From sequence record NC_048136.1: a DNA stretch of 39,793 bases. The stretch is one strand, 5' to 3'. This document shows, one piece after another, positions 8,781 to 39,028 of this stretch. Within the stretch, counting starts at the first letter, position 1. Every line of letters begins with the position of its first letter. The translations under genes and the position numbers were made by a program. Under the pieces are notes generated by a model. The model was not told where the DNA came from and searched no databases. It worked only from the letters and a program-made list of their open reading frames with translations. The stretch comes from Escherichia phage Ro45lw.

Positions 8781-9233
8781 GTGGCTGCATGGACACCAAA
8801 ACGGGGGCACTCTGTGGGTGCCTACCGCTCTGGACTTGAGGCCAAGAACCAGCAGTGGCTGGAGCAGAACGGCGTCAAAGCGGAGTACGAAAGCCATTAT
8901 ATCAACTATGTGATTCCGGCTTCCGACCACAAGTACACACCAGACTTCATCCTTCCGAACGGAATCATCGTCGAGACCAAAGGTATCTTCGACAGTGAGG
9001 ACCGCAAGAAGCATATGCTGGTACGCGAGCAGCACCCTGAGCTGGACATCCGGTTCGTGTTCTCGTCCTCCCGCTCCAAGCTGTACAAAGGGTCCCCGAC
9101 CACGTATGGCGCATGGTGCGAAAAGAACGGCTTTAAGTTTGCCGACAAGTTTATCCCGGTTGAGTGGCTGAAAGAGGCGACTGTGCGTCTGCCTTCTGGT
9201 ATCCTCATCCCGAAGAAAGGAGTTAAGAAATGA
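8781..9233 (+). CDS. 3: Endonuclease I (Holliday junction resolvase)
   Basis: YVIPASDHKYTPDF, VETKG, DRKKHMLVREQHPELDIRFVFSSSRSKLYKGSP match T7 gp3; GTG start coupled to the SSB stop. Confidence 0.9.
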   Translation: MAAWTPKRGHSVGAYRSGLEAKNQQWLEQNGVKAEYESHYINYVIPASDHKYTPDFILPNGIIVETKGIFDSEDRKKHMLVREQHPELDIRFVFSSSRSKLYKGSPTTYGAWCEKNGFKFADKFIPVEWLKEATVRLPSGILIPKKGVKK

Positions 9234-11919: not shown

Positions 11920-12450
11920 ATGCGTAATCTCATAAGCGGCAAGACCCTCATTGAGTTCCAGAATCAGCTTGGCCCTAAGGAGGGCCTTAGCGTCTTCACT
12001 ACCCGTTGCACCGGGAGAACTAAGGGCCGCGCACTACTGGTCATCTCCACGGTCATGGCCCAAGGTTCTATGGACATCGGGCCTCTGCGTGGTAATCTAG
12101 GTGACGATGAGGTCAATCAGACCAAGGTGGAAATCATCAAGTCCCTTGACCAGATGCAGCTCGTGGGCTTCTCGTGGTCTGGTGACGTCCTGTCTTACTA
12201 TCCATTTGAGGAGTATCAAGATGTTAAAGAAGTGGTCCGAGAAGTTGAGGTCCAAGTATCACCTTTCGCTGGCGAAGTGGTATCACCACGAAGCTACCGT
12301 GTTGTCGAACATTCTGAAGGACCAGCGCTTCCAGTCGATAGCTTGGAACAAAGCTACCCAGAAGTGCGCGTATCATCTGGCGAGAGTCCTGTAGTCCCGA
12401 TGGAGGTCATCGAACCTCTGGTCCCGGACATGACGCCTCCGAACGCTTAA
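11920..12450 (+). CDS. Hypothetical protein, 176 aa (gene 4.3-4.7 region)
   Basis: Strong RBS AAGGAG before ATG; acidic and proline-rich C-terminus; no recognisable domain. Confidence 0.5.
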   Translation: MRNLISGKTLIEFQNQLGPKEGLSVFTTRCTGRTKGRALLVISTVMAQGSMDIGPLRGNLGDDEVNQTKVEIIKSLDQMQLVGFSWSGDVLSYYPFEEYQDVKEVVREVEVQVSPFAGEVVSPRSYRVVEHSEGPALPVDSLEQSYPEVRVSSGESPVVPMEVIEPLVPDMTPPNA

Positions 12451-14538: not shown

Positions 14539-15136
14539 TAACATCATGGTGCACATTAAATCTGGTGAACTCGGTGAACTCCTAATGGGACAATACCGAG
14601 CCAAGCCATAGGGAGGATGTATGAGAGGCAAGAAGTTAATTCTTGAGGCCACTGAGACTGGCTGCATAATCCCTACGTCACATAAATTGAATCAGGATGG
14701 ATACTTCCGAAAGAGGACTAACGGTGTCCTTGAGATGTATCATAGAACTGTATGGATTAAAGCTAATGGTCCAATACCTGACGGTTTCGAAGTAGACCAC
14801 AAGTGTCGTAATAGAGCTTGTTGCAACGTCGAACATCTACAAGTATTAGACCGGGACTCACACTTAGTCAAGACCAACCAAGAGCGATACGCTGCTAGGA
14901 AGCTAGAAGCACGAGACTACTGGGTAGAGACTGGGTGTACTGGAACGAAGTTAGCCGAAGTATTCAATGTGTCGTTCTCAGCCGCCTGTGGGTGGATTAG
15001 AGAGTGGAAGGCGTAGAGACTATCCGAAAGGAGTAGGGCCGTGGGTGAGATTCCCACGTAACCCGAAGCGCCAGACAGTCACCTCAAAGACTGATGATAT
15101 AGTCCGACACTTCCAGTAATGGGAGAATACAGAAAG
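14539..15136 (+). mobile_element. Putative group I intron (598 nt) carrying an HNH homing endonuclease gene
   Basis: Separates two segments that together encode an intact T7-like DNA polymerase; 5' exon ends in T, insert ends in G; P1 candidate 14533-14538/14549-14554; R-like AGAGACTA (15013-15020) and S-like GATATAGTCCGAC (15097-15109). Confidence 0.75.
14621..15016 (+). CDS. Intron-encoded HNH homing endonuclease, 131 aa
   Basis: RBS GGGAGG; HNH-type motif GPIPDGFEVDHKCRNRACCNVEHL; AGA/AGG/ATA-rich codon usage unlike neighbouring genes. Confidence 0.8.
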   Translation: MRGKKLILEATETGCIIPTSHKLNQDGYFRKRTNGVLEMYHRTVWIKANGPIPDGFEVDHKCRNRACCNVEHLQVLDRDSHLVKTNQERYAARKLEARDYWVETGCTGTKLAEVFNVSFSAACGWIREWKA

Positions 15137-17370: not shown

Positions 17371-17772
17371 ATGCTCCACTACCGAAACTCAAGCGATGGT
17401 CGCCTAATGGCTGCTTATCGCCTCTGGGAAGACGGACAGTCTGACTTCGCCTCCTTCTCCGAGTTCAAGCAGCATACCTTCCGTATGGCTGATGAGCTTG
17501 AGGGCGAGGAGTACACAATCTACGATGATGAGTGTAAGCCTGTGGCCTACCTCTACATGCTGGCTTCATCGTCTTGGCACCGAAAGACTCCCGGTCTTGA
17601 CCTTTCCATTCTCGCTATCCGTAGTGACTCGCAGTCCTCCCGCAAGGTTCTTGAGACTGTCAGACACATTATTGACGGAGAGTGCAGACGATGGGGTCTG
17701 AACTGGTGGTCCCGTGTCAAGCACAATGGGCCAGTAGACATCGTTACAACCAAGGAGATTAACCGTGGGTAA
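17371..17772 (+). CDS. 7: gp7-like protein (host range / virion assembly)
   Basis: 133 aa; VAYLYMLA...WxSRxKHxG pattern similar to T7 gp7. Confidence 0.65.
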   Translation: MLHYRNSSDGRLMAAYRLWEDGQSDFASFSEFKQHTFRMADELEGEEYTIYDDECKPVAYLYMLASSSWHRKTPGLDLSILAIRSDSQSSRKVLETVRHIIDGECRRWGLNWWSRVKHNGPVDIVTTKEINRG

Positions 17773-18016
17773 ATCCATTAGTAAAGCCTTTAAGAAAGTA
17801 GTAGGTGGTGCTCTGAACACCGTAGGTCTGGGACAATCAGCCCCTCAGCCTAAAGCTCAGGACGCTCAGGTAGCTGCTGCTCCGGTAGAAGTGCCTCAGG
17901 ACCAAGTGACTGACGTTGAGACTGATGTGACCGAGACCGATAAGAAGAAGGTCAAGTCAACTGGTAAGCGTGGACTTCAAGTCTCTCGTACCTCTGGTGG
18001 AGGCATCTCTATATGA
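17765..18016 (+). CDS. 7.3: gp7.3-like tail/host-range protein
   Basis: C-terminus GKRGLQVSRTSGGGISI matches T7 gp7.3 (SLSVARSSGGGINI); GTG start with RBS AAGGAG 8 nt upstream. Confidence 0.8.
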   Translation: MGKSISKAFKKVVGGALNTVGLGQSAPQPKAQDAQVAAAPVEVPQDQVTDVETDVTETDKKKVKSTGKRGLQVSRTSGGGISI

Positions 18017-18423
18017 CAGACTGCATACTACATAAGGGCTGCGTTAATAATTCTGGGTATGGCCTGAAGTGGTATGCCGGTAAGCTGCGGGGAGCACACG
18101 TAGTGTCATATCTCAAGAACAAGGGACCTATACCAGAAGGGCTAGTTGTGATGCACTCTTGTGACAACAGATTGTGCGTAAATCCAGAACACCTTAGTGT
18201 TGGGACCTACAGTGAGAACATGATAGACTGTGTTTCCAAGGGACGGAAGAACGCTCCGCATAGTGACAGCCACTACAACTCCAAGCTGAGCGCTGAAGAA
18301 GTTAAGTCCATACGCAAGTCAGGACTAACTGCTACAGAGCTTACAGCCATGTATCCTGGAGTGTCTAGGAGAACGCTGTCTGACGTATTAACAGGTAAAA
18401 CATGGAGGCACGTAGATGGCTGA
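18013..18423 (+). CDS. HNH endonuclease (free-standing, putative homing endonuclease), 136 aa
   Basis: SGYG...GPIPEGLVVMHSCDNRLCVNPEHL motif; paralogous to the ORF at 29244; AGG/AGA/ATA codons. Confidence 0.85.
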   Translation: MTDCILHKGCVNNSGYGLKWYAGKLRGAHVVSYLKNKGPIPEGLVVMHSCDNRLCVNPEHLSVGTYSENMIDCVSKGRKNAPHSDSHYNSKLSAEEVKSIRKSGLTATELTAMYPGVSRRTLSDVLTGKTWRHVDG

Positions 18424-23041: not shown

Positions 23042-25411
23042 ATGCCGTTATACACACAAAGCATAAAAAATCTTAAGGGGGGCATTAGCCAACAGCCGGA
23101 CATCCTGAGGTTCTCAGACCAAGGTGAGCAGCAGATTAACGGCTGGTCATCCGAGAGTGACGGGCTACAGAAGCGACCACCTACCGTCTGGAAGAAGAGG
23201 CTGGCGGCGGTGAACGAGACCATCCCGAACAACGCTAAGTTCCATCTGATTAACAGGGACGAGAACGAGCAGTATTATATCGTCTTCACAGGAAAGGAAA
23301 TCATGGTCTTTGACCTTGAGGGGAACCAGTACACTGTTTCAGGTGTAACGGACTACGTGAACACTTCCAAGCCGCGTGACGACATCCGGGTCATTACAGT
23401 AGCTGACTACACGTTCGTAGTGAATCGCCGAACTGTGGTGGCTCAGGGGACAACTAAGGCAAACCCTACCTACAATATGAAGAACCGAGCTTTGATTAAC
23501 CTTCGTGGTGGTCAGTATGGTAGATTGCTGAAGGTAGGAATTAATGGCGGGACAAAGGTTGAGCACCAGCTTCCTCCGGGAGATAACGCCAAAGATGACC
23601 CACCTAAAGTCGACGCTCAGGCTATCGGCAAGGCGTTGGTGGACCTGCTTGTGGTGGCCTATCCAAACTACACGTTCACCCTTGGGTCTGGCTACATCGA
23701 GATTAAAGCCCCAGCAGGGACCGACATCAACTCGGTGGAGACTGAGGATGGCTATGCCAACCAGCTCATCAATGCGGTACTTGATACTGTGCAGACTATC
23801 AGTAAGCTCCCTCTGGCAGCGCCTGAAGGATACATCATCCGCATTCAGGGTGAGACTAACAGCTCAGCAGATGAGTATTTCGTGAAGTATGACTCTGCGA
23901 AGAAGACTTGGCGCGAGACTGTTGAGCCTGGGACTGTAACGGGATTCGACGCATCAACCATGCCACACGCTCTGGTCAGACAGGCAGACGGGAACTTTAC
24001 GTTCCAGACCCTAGACTGGACTGAGCGTGGCGCTGGTAACGATGAGACCAACCCGATGCCTAGCTTCGTGAACTCTACGATTAACGATGTGTTCTTCTAT
24101 CGTAACCGCTTAGGGTTCCTCTCCGGCGAGAACGTCATTATGTCCCGGTCTGCTGGATACTTTGCATTCTTCCCTAAGAGCGTGGCGACCCTCAGTGATG
24201 ATGACCCGATTGACGTAGCTGTGAGTCATCCTCGAATCTCCATCCTGAAGTATGCTGTACCGTTCGCAGAACAGCTACTACTGTGGTCTGATGAGGTGCA
24301 GTTCGTGATGACCAGCTCCGGGGTTCTGACCGCCAAGTCCATCCAACTTGATGTAGGCTCTGAGTTCGCTGTTAGTGATAATGCTCGACCGTTTGCCATT
24401 GGACGTTCAGTCTTCTTCGCTGCTCCTCGCGGCTCGTTCACCAGCATTAACCGTTACTTTGCGGTGGCTGATGTCACAGACGTGAAGGACGCGGACGATA
24501 CGACCGGGCATGTGCTGTCTTACATTCCTAACGGAGTATTCGACATCCAAGGGTCCTCTACTGAGAACTTCATCACCGTGTCTACTGAAGGCGCTCCGAA
24601 CAAGCTGTTCATCTACAAGTTCCTCTTCAAGGATGGCGTACAGCTTCAAGCCTCGTGGTCGCACTGGGAGTTGGAGCAAGGGGAGCAGATTATGGCCTCA
24701 GCCTGTATAGGGTCCGCTATGTACATAGTACGTAAGCATGGCTACGGAGTTGACTTGGAAAAGCTGGAGTTCATCAAGGAGGCTGTTGACATCGGAGGGG
24801 AACCATACCGCCTCCATCTTGACGGTAAAACCACTATGGTCATCCCGACTGACGCGTTCAACCCTGACACGTACACCTCTTCCTTCGACGTTGGTGCGGC
24901 CTATGGTGGTGTTTTCCCTCCAGCAGGTAAGTATGTCATGGTCGACTCCAGTGGGCGCTTCGTGCAGCTGCCGGATACCGTATGGTCCAGCACTCGGTGG
25001 GTGACTGTTAAGGGAGACTGGTCAGGTAAGACCGTGTTCCTCGGTCGCGTCTATAAGTTCACCTACGCCTTCTCTCGGTTCCTCATTAAGTATGAAGACC
25101 AGAACGGGACGGTGACTGAAGACTCAGGTCGACTACAGCTTCGCCGCGCTTGGGTGAATTATCAGCACACTGGCGCGATGGTGATGCGTGTAGTCAACCA
25201 TCACCGTGAGTTCCTGAACACGCTGAACGGCTACAAGCTGGGCCTACAGGACATCGGTCGGGTCGACATCGGTGACGGTCAGTTTAGGTTTCCAATGAAC
25301 GGAGATGCTCTGCACACTCGGCTAATCCTTGAGTCAGACTATCCGACCCCATTGTCCATCGTCGGTTGCGGCTGGGAGGCTTCATACGCCCGTAAAGCCA
25401 AAGCTATCTAA
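23042..25411 (+). CDS. 12: Tail tubular protein B
   Basis: QSIKNLKGGISQQPDILR, VTVADYTF, DGYADQLIN, LQLRRAWVNY, GCGWE match T7 gp12. Confidence 0.95.
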   Translation: MPLYTQSIKNLKGGISQQPDILRFSDQGEQQINGWSSESDGLQKRPPTVWKKRLAAVNETIPNNAKFHLINRDENEQYYIVFTGKEIMVFDLEGNQYTVSGVTDYVNTSKPRDDIRVITVADYTFVVNRRTVVAQGTTKANPTYNMKNRALINLRGGQYGRLLKVGINGGTKVEHQLPPGDNAKDDPPKVDAQAIGKALVDLLVVAYPNYTFTLGSGYIEIKAPAGTDINSVETEDGYANQLINAVLDTVQTISKLPLAAPEGYIIRIQGETNSSADEYFVKYDSAKKTWRETVEPGTVTGFDASTMPHALVRQADGNFTFQTLDWTERGAGNDETNPMPSFVNSTINDVFFYRNRLGFLSGENVIMSRSAGYFAFFPKSVATLSDDDPIDVAVSHPRISILKYAVPFAEQLLLWSDEVQFVMTSSGVLTAKSIQLDVGSEFAVSDNARPFAIGRSVFFAAPRGSFTSINRYFAVADVTDVKDADDTTGHVLSYIPNGVFDIQGSSTENFITVSTEGAPNKLFIYKFLFKDGVQLQASWSHWELEQGEQIMASACIGSAMYIVRKHGYGVDLEKLEFIKEAVDIGGEPYRLHLDGKTTMVIPTDAFNPDTYTSSFDVGAAYGGVFPPAGKYVMVDSSGRFVQLPDTVWSSTRWVTVKGDWSGKTVFLGRVYKFTYAFSRFLIKYEDQNGTVTEDSGRLQLRRAWVNYQHTGAMVMRVVNHHREFLNTLNGYKLGLQDIGRVDIGDGQFRFPMNGDALHTRLILESDYPTPLSIVGCGWEASYARKAKAI

Positions 25412-25435
25412 CTAATTGAATGGCCTATAGTTTCA

Positions 25436-25458
25436 ACTTAACTATCACTATAGGGACT
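25436..25458 (+). promoter_or_regulatory. Phage-RNAP promoter (phi13-like)
   Basis: AACTTAACTATCACTATAGGGACT. Confidence 0.8.
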
Positions 25459-25497
25459 ATAGGCCCTTTAAGTTATAATACTTTAAGAGGAGACTTT

Positions 25498-25980
25498 ATG
25501 TATATTCGTAAAGCTACTGAACAGGATGTATTGTCCTTCGAAATTGCTATAGATGACGTTAATGAGCTGATGGCGAATGACCCACGGAGAGACCTTGAGT
25601 CTGTCCTACTATCTCACCTCACTCCGTCATCTGTGGTTTTGGTCGATGCGCTGGGGACAGTATACGCCTATGGTGGAAACCAAGGTGATAACGTCTGGTT
25701 CGTTACCTCCCGTCTTGTCTCAAGGCTTACCAGAGCAGAGAGACGTGAGTTCGTCCAGAGAATCGCTGAGTACAGAGACTTAAGGTTAGACCAGTATCCG
25801 GTCCTTTGGAATTACGTTTGGGAAGGGAACAGCAGTCACATTAGGTTCCTAAAGATTCTTGGGGCAGTGTTCCACGAAGAGTGGACCGAGAGTCCTGTTA
25901 CGGGAGAGAGGTTCCGGCTATTTACCATGTCAAGGAGTAATAATGAAAGTATGCGTAAGGTGCGGGGAGCTGAAGGATAG
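25498..25980 (+). CDS. gp13-like internal virion / assembly protein, 160 aa
   Basis: Position equivalent to T7 gene 13; ATG with RBS AGAGGAG; similarity to T7 gp13 is from memory only (LWNYVWEGN..HIRFLK..GAVFHEE). Confidence 0.6.
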   Translation: MYIRKATEQDVLSFEIAIDDVNELMANDPRRDLESVLLSHLTPSSVVLVDALGTVYAYGGNQGDNVWFVTSRLVSRLTRAERREFVQRIAEYRDLRLDQYPVLWNYVWEGNSSHIRFLKILGAVFHEEWTESPVTGERFRLFTMSRSNNESMRKVRGAEG

Positions 25981-26353
25981 TTCCCTGTTTTATAGGTGTA
26001 AAGCTCGAAAGGACGGGCTGGGGTCATACTGCAAGGCTTGTCACGACGCTAAGTCTGCTGGCACCAAGTATAACTATGAGCTTAAAAGGAGAGATGTTCT
26101 CCGTAAGAAGTATGGAATGACACTAGAGTCTTACGAAGCACTTCTTGCGAAACAAGACTCTGAATGTGCCATATGCGGACTTGATGTTAAAAACCACAGA
26201 AGGGCGCTTAATGTAGACCACTGCCACAACACTGGGCAGGTAAGAGGGCTACTCTGCGACGACTGTAACATTGCCCTAGGTAAGTTCAAGGATAACATCC
26301 AGTCTATACTTAAGGCTGCTGAGTATCTGGCTAGAAGCCGGAAGGAGGATTAG
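25943..26353 (+). CDS. Endonuclease VII-like nuclease (putative homing endonuclease), 136 aa
   Basis: CxxC...CxxC N-terminus and ECAICG...LNVDHCHNTGQVRGLLCDDCNIALG, typical of the endonuclease VII family; RBS AAGGAG; overlaps the gene 13 3' end by 38 nt. Confidence 0.75.
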   Translation: MKVCVRCGELKDSSLFYRCKARKDGLGSYCKACHDAKSAGTKYNYELKRRDVLRKKYGMTLESYEALLAKQDSECAICGLDVKNHRRALNVDHCHNTGQVRGLLCDDCNIALGKFKDNIQSILKAAEYLARSRKED

Positions 26354-26380
26354 AAAATTTGCGAACCAATTTCTATCGGC

Positions 26381-26944
26381 ATGGGTATTATGGCTGTAGC
26401 CGGGGCCGCTATGTCCGCTTCAAGTCAGGCCAAAGCCGAAGGTGCAGCGATTGACGCTCAGAACCGACAGGCTCAGGAAATGATTAAGCAGATGAACTAC
26501 TCTGACGCCAACCTGAAGATGCAGGAGCGAGACCTTAAGGAACAGCAGGTCGCTGAGCTGACCGAGACGACTCTGAATGGTATCCGCAATCAGGGAATGG
26601 TCCGTGCAGCAGTGGCTGAGTCCGGTCTGGAAGGAAACTCCATTAACCGCATTGAGCGCTCAGTGGAAGGCGACACCGTGAAAGAACGTGCTGGCATCAC
26701 CGAAAGTTACAACCGAGATTATGCGGCTATCTTCGGGAACCGTATTGCCAACATTGAGAACACCAAGTCTGTCATCAAGGGTCAGGCCAAAATCATCAAG
26801 ACCAGCCCTCTGGCTCACGCACTTAACGTCACCTCTGCTGGTGTGCAGGGTTACGCTATGGGTAGCTCTATCTCTGGCGCTAAGCCGTCTGGCGGTGCTG
26901 CCCCAATCAGTGCTGCTAAAGGCACACCTACAGGTCATAGCTAA
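26381..26944 (+). CDS. 14: Internal virion protein gp14-like
   Basis: Ala/Gln-rich N-terminus, NYxDANLxxQER, SxNRIxR, C-terminal AAKGTPTG resemble T7 gp14. Confidence 0.8.
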   Translation: MGIMAVAGAAMSASSQAKAEGAAIDAQNRQAQEMIKQMNYSDANLKMQERDLKEQQVAELTETTLNGIRNQGMVRAAVAESGLEGNSINRIERSVEGDTVKERAGITESYNRDYAAIFGNRIANIENTKSVIKGQAKIIKTSPLAHALNVTSAGVQGYAMGSSISGAKPSGGAAPISAAKGTPTGHS

Positions 26945-29243: not shown

Positions 29244-29693
29244 ATGAAGAACGGAACAGCCAGTGAGAGACTGGCACGTCTTTCGACTGTAGAAGTAACT
29301 GGCTGTGTCCGATTCACTGGAGGACTCAACAGTAGTGGTTATGGAAACCTATGGGTCGATGGTAAGACAGTTGGAGCGCATCGTGTTGCCTATGAGTTAG
29401 CGAACGGTCCGATACCTAAGGGTAGCGTACTTCGTCACACTTGTGACAACAGGTACTGCGTGAATCCTGAACATTTAGTCTTGGGAACACATCGTGAAAA
29501 CATGGAGGATATGACCAAGCGAGGCCGTCAGGCGAGAGGCTCTAAGATCAGCACGTGTGTGCTGTCCGAGGAGGACGTAAGGTCTATACGCTCAAGTGAT
29601 AAAAGTGGTGTGGAACTGGCACAGATTTTCGGAATCTCACCAGTAACTATTAGTCGAATCAAGAGGAGATTAACATGGCAGCACGTGGAGTGA
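29244..29693 (+). CDS. HNH endonuclease (free-standing, putative homing endonuclease), 149 aa
   Basis: SGYG...GPIPKGSVLRHTCDNRYCVNPEHL; paralog of the 18013 ORF; RBS AAGGAG; sits between genes 15 and 16, where T7 has no gene. Confidence 0.85.
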   Translation: MKNGTASERLARLSTVEVTGCVRFTGGLNSSGYGNLWVDGKTVGAHRVAYELANGPIPKGSVLRHTCDNRYCVNPEHLVLGTHRENMEDMTKRGRQARGSKISTCVLSEEDVRSIRSSDKSGVELAQIFGISPVTISRIKRRLTWQHVE

Positions 29694-38485: not shown

Positions 38486-39028
38486 ATGGCAAAGGCGAAG
38501 GACATCGACAGGGTGTCCCTCTTTGACCACTACGCATACGTTGACGGACAGTTGGTGTGCAGGAAGCCTTATGGCAGCTCGAAGAAGACTCCGGGTGAGC
38601 CTATGGGCTTCTCTGTACACCCTTCCGGCTATGCGATAGTGAAAGTGCTCGGAAGTCGTTACAGGCGCTCTCGCATCATCTACAGTCTAGCTGTGGGTCG
38701 AATCCCGAATGGTATGCTGGTTGACCACATCAACGGTGACAGACTGGATGACAGGCCAGAGAACTACAGGCTGGTCACTGAGTTGGAGAACCGATGGAAC
38801 TCCGCAGGTGGCGAGTCTAATGGTCTCCCTAAGGGTATCAGCTTCTTCAAGCCAACCGGGAAGTATCGCGCTCAGTTGCGACTTCAGGGTAAGTGCTTCA
38901 CTAAGACTTCGGACTCCATAGAGGAGCTTGAGGTCTGGCTGGAGGACTTAAGGTCAGAGAAGCACAAAGAATACTCAGTAAGCCTACGGTCCCCTAAGCG
39001 TGATAGGACCCGTAGAAACCACAAGTAA
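38486..39028 (+). CDS. HNH endonuclease with AP2-like DNA-binding region (putative homing endonuclease), 180 aa
   Basis: GYAIVKV...RRSRIIYSLAVGRIPNGMLVDHINGDRLDDRPENYRLVTELEN is an HNH core; RBS AAGGAGG; AGG/AGA/ATA codons. Confidence 0.8.
   Translation: MAKAKDIDRVSLFDHYAYVDGQLVCRKPYGSSKKTPGEPMGFSVHPSGYAIVKVLGSRYRRSRIIYSLAVGRIPNGMLVDHINGDRLDDRPENYRLVTELENRWNSAGGESNGLPKGISFFKPTGKYRAQLRLQGKCFTKTSDSIEELEVWLEDLRSEKHKEYSVSLRSPKRDRTRRNHK

What the first reader, a model, noticed from the sequence alone, without database searches (positions are those of the whole stretch)
25943..26353. Endonuclease VII-like gene inserted between genes 13 and 14, overlapping the gene 13 3' end
T7 has no gene between 13 and 14. 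This ORF has the Cys-rich N-terminus and the DHCH...GLLC..CN..LG core of the endonuclease VII family, which includes free-standing homing endonucleases. It starts 38 nt before the gene 13 stop with its own RBS, and its AGG/AGA/ATA-rich codon usage differs from the flanking structural genes.
Basis: partly seen in the sequence, partly recalled or inferred. Interest (0 to 1): 0.55.

Follow-up and report, generated by a model that had tools for sequence, protein, structure and literature searches.

The report
Mobile endonuclease gene between genes 13/14
A T7-like phage carries, between two virion-protein genes, a small selfish nuclease gene of a kind already annotated as "gene 13.5" in other T7 relatives; it is an ordinary find, but related phages show its arrival, its decay, and a possible rewiring of how the next gene starts translation.

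Summary
ORF 25943-26353 (+, 136 aa) has its own Shine-Dalgarno sequence, overlaps the last 38 nt of gene 13 and matches Pfam Endonuclease_7 (E=1.2e-25).

It is a free-standing homing-endonuclease gene (HEG) of the endonuclease VII / "DHHRN" family:
- It aligns end to end (36% identity) with F-CphI, the one characterised homing enzyme of that family.
- All catalytic and zinc-binding residues are kept.
- The phage has its own T7-type resolvase, endonuclease I.
- The closest relatives (about 90-100% identical in genes 12, 14 and 15) lack the ORF.
- It sits in a roughly 930-bp mosaic patch (25523-26452).
- A metagenomic contig shares a 98.9% identical tract (25711-26364).
- dN/dS is 0.07-0.08.
- Four independent decayed remnants occur at the same site in other phages.

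The kind is not new. phiYeO3-12 gene 13.5 and EcoDS1 gp13.5 are annotated equivalents, and a 2018 paper predicted such podovirus proteins to be homing enzymes. This lineage is divergent: at most 56% amino-acid identity to any deposited phage in the collection searched.

One extra point: all 14 examined Kayfunavirus-like carriers or remnants replace the gene 14 ATG with ATT, 3 nt after the nuclease stop codon, and the three internal-deletion remnants are all in frame. This suggests AUU-initiated or translationally coupled gene 14 expression.

Cleavage and homing are inferred, not shown.

The parts
25438..25457 (+). Phage RNA-polymerase late promoter (the phi13 equivalent) that drives gene 13, the endonuclease gene and gene 14.
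   Evidence: One of 6 matches to TAAACTATCACTATAGGGA in the genome, with 0 expected by chance. No terminator-like site on the + strand before gene 14. phiYeO3-12 and T7 annotate a phi13 promoter at the same position.
25498..25980 (+). Gene 13 (gp13, 160 aa). Its last 38 nt are read in another frame of the endonuclease gene, which gives a changed C-terminal tail (...SRSNNESMRKVRGAEG).
   Evidence: PF11090 E=8.6e-39. Compared with the gp13 of relatives.
25523..26452 (.). Mosaic patch relative to the EP1-like backbone: most of gene 13, the endonuclease gene and about the first 100 nt of gene 14.
   Evidence: Identity to EP1 is 100% over 25400-25522 apart from an 11-bp insertion. It falls to 61-78% across gene 13 and is 85% at 26400-26499. 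It returns to 92-100% from about 26453.
25711..26364 (.). Tract nearly identical to metagenomic contig L014. It is a candidate for the recently exchanged unit: the HEG plus 232 bp of the gene 13 3' end.
   Evidence: 7 mismatches in 654 bp (98.9%). By contrast there are 20 mismatches in 25512-25710 and 8 in 26365-26393.
25932..25937 (+). Shine-Dalgarno AAGGAG of the endonuclease gene. It corresponds to the sequence that serves gene 14 in insert-free phages.
   Evidence: Junction comparison. Insert-free phages read ...tctctaaggaggacgtATGTGY, and the window reads ...tgtcaaggagtaataATGAAA.
25943..26353 (+). Free-standing homing-endonuclease gene (gene 13.5-type; endonuclease VII / DHHRN family), 136 aa.
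25952..26041 (+). N-terminal Cys4 zinc-ribbon module (C4, C7, C30, C33), the presumed DNA-recognition domain.
   Evidence: All four Cys are invariant in 72 homologues. The module is also present in F-CphI and is modelled with pLDDT 93-95.
26165..26269 (+). Beta-beta-alpha-metal catalytic core: zinc ligands C75/C78/C105/C108 and active-site residues D92, H93, H95, R101, N109.
   Evidence: The alignment to T4 endonuclease VII chain 1e7d places these residues on C23/C26/C58/C61, D40, H41, H43, R54 and N62. They are invariant. Their roles are those reported in PMC6083498.
26342..26349 (+). Shine-Dalgarno AAGGAGGA for gene 14, carried inside the 3' end of the endonuclease ORF.
   Evidence: Conserved as GGAAGGRGG in all 14 carriers and remnants.
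26357..26944 (+). Gene 14 (gp14). The probable start is ATT at 26357, 3 nt after the endonuclease TAG and in the same frame. The first ATG is at 26381.
   Evidence: PF24072 E=4.1e-42. ATT replaces the canonical ATG in 14 of 14 carriers and remnants, while 8 of 8 insert-free phages have ATG. Codons 6-18 change mainly at synonymous sites, and no ATG/GTG/TTG lies between the TAG and codon 9.

Best explanation
The ORF is a functional, free-standing homing-endonuclease gene of the endonuclease VII-motif (DHHRN, F-CphI-like) family. It sits at the gene 13/14 junction of a Kayfunavirus-like T7 relative.

Proposed mechanism (inferred):
1. The gene is transcribed late from the phi13-type promoter and translated from the Shine-Dalgarno sequence that serves gene 14 in insert-free phages.
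2. The protein recognises DNA with its N-terminal Cys4 zinc ribbon and cuts with its zinc-stabilised beta-beta-alpha-metal site (D92, H93, H95, R101, N109).
3. In mixed infections it cleaves the gene 13/14 junction region of related phages that lack it.
4. Repair from the carrier genome copies the gene together with flanking gene 13 and gene 14 sequence into the recipient.
5. The carrier is protected because the insertion splits the junction and the neighbouring bases differ (ATG TGY GAA CCC GTA AGY becomes ATT TGC GAA CCA ATT TCT).

The window phage has an EP1-like backbone. It most likely acquired the gene with about 420 bp of gene 13 and about 100 bp of gene 14 from an L014-like donor.

Shown here: gene structure, family membership by sequence and predicted fold, sporadic distribution, mosaic flanks, purifying selection and decay remnants. 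Inferred: cleavage, the target site and homing.
For: - Family: Pfam E=1.2e-25. Full-length homology to the characterised homing endonuclease F-CphI, including the N-terminal zinc ribbon.
- Residues: catalytic and zinc residues align with T4 endonuclease VII and Hpy99I and are invariant in 72 homologues.
- A separate resolvase is present: endonuclease I at 8781-9233, PF05367 E=1e-80. PMC6083498 used this criterion to assign podovirus proteins to the 'endonuclease clade'.
- Absent from the nearest relatives, which are otherwise 90-100% identical.
- Sharp mosaic boundaries at about 25523 and 26452.
- 98.9% identical tract with L014, inside flanks that are about 90% (left) and about 72% (right) identical.
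- dN/dS 0.07-0.08 at dS about 1.1 against L012 and L013.
- Atypical codon usage and lower GC.
- Decay series at the same site: Monomax, Esher6/7, KM02 and ZG49.
- A second endonuclease VII lineage (42% identity) at the same site with the same right junction.
- A different insert, a 43-aa CxxC mini-ORF, at the same point in Dev2 and SH5.
Against: - No biochemical or genetic evidence exists for this protein or, as far as the literature search showed, for any gene 13.5 product.
- The nucleotide identity of the HEG to L012 and L013 (75-91%) is about the same as that of their gene 15. Long vertical residence with occasional recombination fits as well as frequent homing.
- Gene 13 alleles of the window's type also occur, at 80-84% identity, in phages without the HEG, such as Pisces and RDN8.1. 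The left part of the patch therefore need not have travelled with the HEG.
- The mosaic structure could come from ordinary recombination.
Confidence: 0.75

Rival explanations
1. A domesticated nuclease kept for a benefit to the phage rather than for its own spread. Examples would be excluding or degrading co-infecting relatives without gene conversion, attacking host DNA, or stimulating recombination or amplification of neighbouring genes.
For: Strong purifying selection over a long divergence (dN/dS 0.07-0.08 at dS about 1.1). The lineage appears old and is inherited with divergence similar to its flanks. The Hafnia phage Ca authors speculated that such nucleases attack the host (PMC8861465). 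A phage homing endonuclease has been reported to aid immune evasion by amplifying nearby genes (PMC13096335 abstract).
Against: The gene is dispensable. Close relatives lack it, and four independent remnants have lost the catalytic core while the phages were still isolated as viable. Nothing in the neighbourhood looks like an anti-defence cargo. Exclusion of relatives by cleavage is mechanistically the same first step as homing.
Confidence: 0.13
2. A Holliday-junction resolvase equivalent to T4 endonuclease VII (gp49), used to debranch DNA before packaging.
For: Same Pfam family and catalytic residues as T4 endonuclease VII. Many database records name it 'recombination endonuclease VII'.
Against: The genome already encodes the T7-type resolvase endonuclease I. 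The motif lies in the C-terminal half behind a zinc ribbon, as in F-CphI. The protein ends 27 residues after N109, so the long C-terminal region of T4 endonuclease VII is absent. The best structural and sequence match is the sequence-specific enzyme Hpy99I. The gene is missing from close relatives.
Confidence: 0.03
3. A recently inactivated relic: the ORF is intact but no longer makes an active or mobile enzyme. It would be retained only because its 3' end supplies the ribosome-binding region of gene 14.
For: Remnants in other phages show that the 3' end is kept when the rest is deleted. This site clearly goes through decay.
Against: Every invariant family residue is intact. Only 4 nucleotide differences (2 synonymous, 2 non-synonymous) from L014 over the ORF, and low dN/dS against L012 and L013. 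It has its own Shine-Dalgarno sequence with 5-nt spacing.
Confidence: 0.07

Closest known systems
F-CphI (ORF177 of cyanophage S-PM2), founding member of the DHHRN homing-endonuclease family (PMC6083498)
   Same: End-to-end alignment: 36% identity over 132 of 136 aa, E=6e-25. Same size (142 against 136 aa). Same N-terminal Cys4 ribbon. Same C-terminal endonuclease VII motif with D, H, H, R and N. Both are free-standing genes next to an essential or important phage gene.
   Different: F-CphI lies beside an intron-containing psbA in a T4-like cyanophage and works by 'collaborative homing' with that intron. Here there is no intron and the host is a T7-like podovirus. The presumed protection is the insertion itself plus point differences. 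Activity has been shown for F-CphI but not here.
Gene 13.5 of phiYeO3-12 and other Teetrevirus and related phages (VAC1, AP5, FE44 and others)
   Same: Same position between genes 13 and 14 and the same family. The gene takes over the Shine-Dalgarno sequence after gene 13 and carries a new one for gene 14 in its 3' end. Amino-acid identity is 48-56%.
   Different: In those phages gene 14 keeps its ATG, 2 nt after a TAA stop. In the window it is ATT, 3 nt after a TAG. The flanking genes belong to a different genus.
EcoDS1/Penshu1-type gp13.5 of Kayfunavirus (Penshu1, CY1, PSK1, U8, HC13, ST21, Esher2)
   Same: Same genus-level backbone and the same insertion point. The last roughly 40 nt (AAEYLAxSRKGD*) and the TAG-RAA-ATT-TGC-GAR-CCA right junction are nearly identical.
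   Different: Only 38-42% amino-acid identity over the body of the protein, and 8 residues shorter. The window belongs to a second lineage, found otherwise only in three metagenomic contigs (87-99% identity) and in the Monomax remnant.
T4 endonuclease VII (gp49) and the restriction enzyme Hpy99I
   Same: Beta-beta-alpha-metal fold, Cys4 zinc site and catalytic D/H/H/N residues.
   Different: T4 endonuclease VII has the motif at its N-terminus followed by a long C-terminal region, and it resolves junctions. Hpy99I is paired with a methylase in Helicobacter. Neither is a mobile phage gene.

Membership tests
Pfam Endonuclease_7 (PF02945) | Profile match above the curated gathering score | tested here: met
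   89.7 bits against a cut-off of 23.6, E=1.2e-25, profile positions 4-81 of 82.
DHHRN (F-CphI-like) homing endonucleases, PMC6083498 | Conserved D, H, H, R and N (T4 endonuclease VII D40, H41, H43, R54, N62), flanked by CX2-4C and CX2C zinc ligands | tested here: met
   D92, H93, H95, R101, N109 and C75/C78/C105/C108. Aligned to chain 1e7d and invariant in 72 homologues (C78 is nearly invariant).
DHHRN (F-CphI-like) homing endonucleases, PMC6083498 | 'Endonuclease clade' architecture: motif in the C-terminal half, whole-length alignment with F-CphI rather than with T4 endonuclease VII | tested here: met
   BLASTP covers residues 2-131 of the query and 10-140 of F-CphI. T4 endonuclease VII aligns only over residues 68-119.
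DHHRN (F-CphI-like) homing endonucleases, PMC6083498 | The genome encodes a separate Holliday-junction resolvase, so the protein is not needed as one | tested here: met
   Endonuclease I, PF05367 E=1.1e-80, at 8781-9233.
Homing endonuclease gene (functional definition) | Sporadic presence or absence at one locus among close relatives, with recombinant flanks | tested here: met
   Absent in EP1, SFPH2, Pisces, RDN8.1, MBBL139, P762 and T7, and in SH4 by match span. Present in L012-L014. Mosaic patch 25523-26452 and a 98.9% identical tract with L014.
Homing endonuclease gene (functional definition) | Site-specific cleavage of the insert-free allele, and super-Mendelian inheritance in crosses | not testable with these tools
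   Needs purified protein and mixed infections. No published test of any gene 13.5 product was found.
T4 endonuclease VII-type resolvases | N-terminal catalytic motif followed by the long C-terminal region, with whole-length similarity to gp49 | tested here: not met
   The motif starts at residue 75 of 136 and the protein ends 27 residues after N109. Only 52 residues align with 1e7d.

The most novel reading that the evidence does not exclude
In Kayfunavirus-like phages the endonuclease cassette has captured translation initiation of the essential virion protein gp14. The gene 14 ATG is replaced by AUU, 3 nt after the nuclease stop codon, and the only Shine-Dalgarno sequence lies inside the nuclease ORF.

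On this reading, gp14 synthesis depends on an AUU start and probably on ribosomes that terminate at the nuclease stop (termination-reinitiation). That would make the selfish gene hard to lose cleanly. It could decay only through deletions that keep an open frame running to the same TAG, as the three internal-deletion remnants do (24, 29 and 60 aa, all in frame). This would be a translational 'addiction' that prolongs the residence of a homing-endonuclease gene.
Probability: 0.3. Interest if true: 0.55.

Novelty: new member of a known kind. Interest (0 to 1): 0.3.

Why it matters
In itself this adds one divergent lineage to a family of phage homing-endonuclease genes that is annotated but has never been tested at this locus.

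It has some use as a worked example. Within one genus, the same site shows an empty allele, two unrelated-looking nuclease lineages, a different small insert and four decay remnants. That is the whole invasion-decay cycle, and it offers a defined candidate target (the gene 13/14 junction) for a simple cleavage assay.

The ATT start of gene 14 matters for annotation. Gene callers currently start gene 14 at different downstream ATGs in these phages. If the coupling is real, it would also show how a selfish gene can entrench itself.

For phage-therapy or engineering work, five such genes in a 39.8-kb genome are likely hot spots of exchange with co-infecting relatives.

Tried and rejected
- Megablast of the ORF against 50,697 phage records found nothing. 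Protein-level and 'distant' searches were needed instead.
- A five-way MAFFT alignment across the insertion misplaced the flanks. It was replaced by pairwise alignments and direct junction print-outs.
- An IMG/VR scan with the junction pattern TTAGRAAATTTGCGARCC returned one contig of 40,291 bp, the same length as ZG49. It gave no independent sample for the ATT observation.
- Literature searches for 'gene 13.5', 'gp13.5' and phiYeO3-12 found no experimental work on this gene, only annotation tables.
- A resolvase role was considered and rejected on architecture and the presence of endonuclease I.
- A packaging-associated HNH role, as in HK97-like cos phages, was considered and rejected. This genome has 190-bp direct terminal repeats and the gene is not next to the terminase genes.
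- I considered whether the whole of gene 13 always travels with the nuclease gene. This is not supported, because similar gene 13 alleles (80-84%) occur in insert-free Pisces and RDN8.1.
- Read-through of the TAG to make a nuclease-gp14 fusion cannot be excluded. Nothing supports it beyond the shared frame.
Residue mapping therefore rests on the PDB alignment.

Full report
**What the window is.** The 39,793-bp window is a complete T7-like genome with 190-bp direct terminal repeats. All long genes lie on the + strand. The 12-13-14-15 region is 80-92% identical to Kayfunavirus phages; the best matches are Enterobacter phage EP1, Shigella phage SFPH2, Cronobacter phage Dev2 and Citrobacter phage SH4.

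The relevant gene order is:
- gene 12, 23042-25411;
- a phage late promoter at 25438-25457, one of six copies of TAAACTATCACTATAGGGA with none expected by chance;
- gene 13, 25498-25980 (PF11090);
- the ORF in question, 25943-26353;
- gene 14, ending at 26944 (PF24072);
- gene 15, from 26956.

**Check of the observation.**
- The ATG at 25943 follows AAGGAG by 5 nt. The ORF encodes 136 aa. It overlaps the last 38 nt of gene 13.
- It matches Pfam Endonuclease_7 with E=1.2e-25.
- T7 has only 4 nt between genes 13 and 14.
- The codon-usage claim holds statistically. AGA/AGG are 8 of 11 Arg codons, against 53 of 475 in 19 long genes (Fisher P=5e-6). GC is 0.47 against 0.52.
- One correction: the upstream neighbour, gene 13, shares the bias (AGR 10 of 15). 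It is therefore not a contrast with both flanks.

**What the protein is.**
- PDB sequence search finds the catalytic domain of the restriction enzyme Hpy99I (E=1.2e-7) and T4 endonuclease VII (E=2e-4). That alignment places C75/C78/C105/C108 on the zinc ligands C23/C26/C58/C61. It places D92, H93, H95, R101 and N109 on D40, H41, H43, R54 and N62.
- In an alignment of 72 homologues these residues are invariant or nearly so. So is a second Cys4 set in the N-terminus, C4/C7/C30/C33.
- The most informative comparison is with F-CphI of cyanophage S-PM2. The window protein aligns with it from end to end (36% identity over 132 aa, E=6e-25), N-terminal zinc ribbon included.
- F-CphI is the experimentally characterised free-standing homing endonuclease for which the 'DHHRN family' was proposed. 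Mutagenesis showed that the residues shared with endonuclease VII are needed for its activity (PMC6083498).
- That paper placed proteins with the motif in the C-terminal half in an 'endonuclease clade'. It noted that the podoviruses in that clade all encode T7 endonuclease I, and so do not need this protein as a resolvase. The window meets this criterion: endonuclease I at 8781-9233, PF05367 E=1e-80.
- The long C-terminal region of T4 endonuclease VII is absent.

**Distribution and mosaic structure.**
- No phage record has DNA close enough for megablast. At protein level the best deposited phage is 56% identical (Klebsiella phage VAC1). Many of the top hits lie at the same locus, next to 'internal virion protein A'.
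- phiYeO3-12 annotates the gene as 13.5, 'homologous to bacteriophage T4 endonuclease VII'. EcoDS1 has a gp13.5 (PMC8861465). Penshu1, also a Kayfunavirus, has a 42% identical one.
- The nearest relatives lack it. EP1, SFPH2, Pisces, RDN8.1, MBBL139 and P762 go straight from ...TCTCTAAGGAGGACGT to ATGTGYGAACCC. The SH4 match span points the same way.
- Dev2 and SH5 carry a different 120-bp insert at the same point. It encodes a 43-aa CxxC...CxxC mini-ORF.
- Against EP1, identity is 100% from 25400 to 25522 apart from an 11-bp insertion. It collapses to 61-78% across gene 13 and is 85% in the first 100 nt of gene 14. It returns to 92-100% after about 26452.
- The large protein database holds three close relatives (99%, 88% and 87% identity). 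All lie between gp13 and gp14 in T7-like metagenomic contigs.
- The 99% relative, L014, shares a 654-bp tract (25711-26364) with only 7 mismatches. This sits inside flanks that are about 90% (left) and about 72% (right) identical.
- Against the two more distant carriers, dS is about 1.1 and dN/dS is 0.07-0.08. The protein is therefore under purifying selection. Its divergence is similar to that of their gene 15, so this lineage has been in such phages for a long time.

**Decay series.** The last roughly 40 nt of the ORF and the junction with gene 14 are shared by 17 phage records. Among those I read, seven have a full-length Penshu1-type gene: Penshu1, CY1, PSK1, U8, HC13, ST21 and Esher2. Four independent remnants exist:
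- Monomax keeps codons 1-14 and the last 15 codons of a window-type gene (29 aa).
- Esher6 and Esher7 keep 12 + 12 codons of a Penshu1-type gene (24 aa).
- KM02 keeps 33 + 27 codons (60 aa) and lacks the catalytic core.
- ZG49 has a deletion running from inside gene 13 to the middle of the nuclease gene.

One locus in one genus thus shows empty, occupied (two lineages) and decaying states. That is the pattern expected for a homing-endonuclease gene. It also fits the reported tendency of phage nuclease genes to sit at the boundaries of exchanged segments (PMC10055350).

**Architecture of the cassette.**
- The insert lies between the Shine-Dalgarno sequence and the start codon of gene 14. The nuclease gene uses the resident AAGGAG. 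Its own 3' end (…CGG AAG GAG GAT TAG) supplies a new one for gene 14.
- In all 14 Kayfunavirus-like carriers and remnants examined, the canonical gene 14 start is changed. ATG-TGY-GAA-CCC-GTA-AGY becomes ATT-TGC-GAR-CCA-ATT-TCW/AGC (CY1 keeps GTA), 3 nt after the TAG and in the same frame. All 8 insert-free or Dev2-type phages keep ATG.
- No ATG, GTG or TTG lies between the TAG and codon 9. Codons 9 and 12 are ATG in some phages and CTA, TTA or CTG in others.
- Codons 6-18 nevertheless vary mainly at synonymous positions: Ser TCT/TCA/AGC, Ile ATC/ATA/ATT, Gly with all four codons. This stretch is therefore translated, and ATT is the only conserved candidate start.
- The three internal-deletion remnants are all in frame and end at the same TAG (chance about 1 in 27). 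The ZG49 remnant also keeps an open frame to that TAG.
- I read this as a hint, not a proof. gp14 synthesis may start at AUU and may depend on ribosomes arriving through the nuclease ORF. The same base changes are also the obvious candidates for protecting the carrier from its own enzyme.

**Mechanism, and what is inferred.**
- Shown: the gene structure, family membership by sequence and predicted fold, intact active-site and zinc residues, the presence of a separate resolvase, sporadic distribution, sharp recombinant boundaries, purifying selection and remnants.
- Inferred: that the enzyme cuts the 13/14 junction region of insert-free relatives during co-infection, and that it spreads by repair with co-conversion of flanks.
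- Weak points: no gene 13.5 product has been tested. Similar gene 13 alleles exist without the nuclease gene. The divergence pattern is also compatible with mostly vertical descent.
- I put the homing-endonuclease explanation at 0.75, a domesticated nuclease role at 0.13, an inactive relic at 0.07 and a resolvase at 0.03.

**Novelty and score.** The kind is known and annotated, and its homing role was already predicted in 2018. This copy belongs to a lineage not represented among the deposited phages searched. I class it as a new member of a known kind, with interest 0.3. The only part that a specialist might find unexpected is the ATT start and the in-frame decay pattern at gene 14. I give that reading a probability of 0.3 and an interest of about 0.55 if true.

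Noticed in passing
window 26351-26381, and the same junction in L002, L012-L017, L020-L025: The canonical ATG of gene 14 is ATT in all 14 phages that carry an endonuclease VII gene or a remnant of one at this site. It is ATG in all 8 that do not. The stretch up to the first ATG evolves like coding sequence. Gene callers start gene 14 at three different downstream ATGs in these records.
   Followed up: partly
L015 (Monomax) about 655-745; L025 and L028 (Esher7, Esher6) about 870-942; L020 (KM02) 761-943; L017 (ZG49) about 545-742: Four independent decay remnants of the endonuclease gene. Three are internal deletions and all three are in frame (29, 24 and 60 aa mini-ORFs). All keep the 3' end that carries the gene 14 ribosome-binding site.
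   Followed up: partly
L003 (Dev2) 1747-1866; L004 (SH5) 1747-1866: A different 120-bp insert at exactly the same gene 13/14 junction. It encodes a 43-aa protein with CxxC...CxxC (MSLKGLIATKLLCPKCGLHPTLAGYSGSSYWWCYKCNREVKDV). It is not annotated in either record, and its stop overlaps the gene 14 ATG.
   Followed up: no
window 14621-15016, 18013-18423, 29244-29693, 38486-39028: Four further small ORFs match Pfam HNH_3 (E from 2e-12 to 2e-16). They lie after the DNA polymerase gene, before the portal gene, between genes 15 and 16, and after the large terminase gene. The first two share the AGR/ATA-rich, low-GC codon usage of the endonuclease VII gene. With that gene they total about 2.2 kb, or 5.6% of the genome, of putative homing-endonuclease genes.
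   Followed up: partly
window 25477-25487: An 11-bp insertion (AATACTTTAAG) relative to EP1, between the late promoter and the gene 13 Shine-Dalgarno sequence, inside an otherwise 100% identical stretch. L014 also differs from the window here (10 mismatched or gapped positions, 25478-25487).
   Followed up: no
window 25498-25942: Gene 13 has unusual codon usage (AGA/AGG 10 of 15 Arg codons, GC 0.48). Gene 13 of insert-free relatives shows a weaker version of the bias (3-5 of 7-11). Gene 13 occurs in at least two allele types within the genus, which differ by 30-35% at the DNA level.
   Followed up: partly
L010 (OR786095.1): A record named 'Staphylococcus phage MBBL139', with host given as Staphylococcus aureus, is a typical Kayfunavirus. 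Its gene 13 is 82% identical to the window's. The host label looks doubtful.
   Followed up: no
window 11920-12450 and 17371-17772: Two ORFs, of 176 and 133 aa, in the replication and early-late regions have no Pfam match.
   Followed up: no
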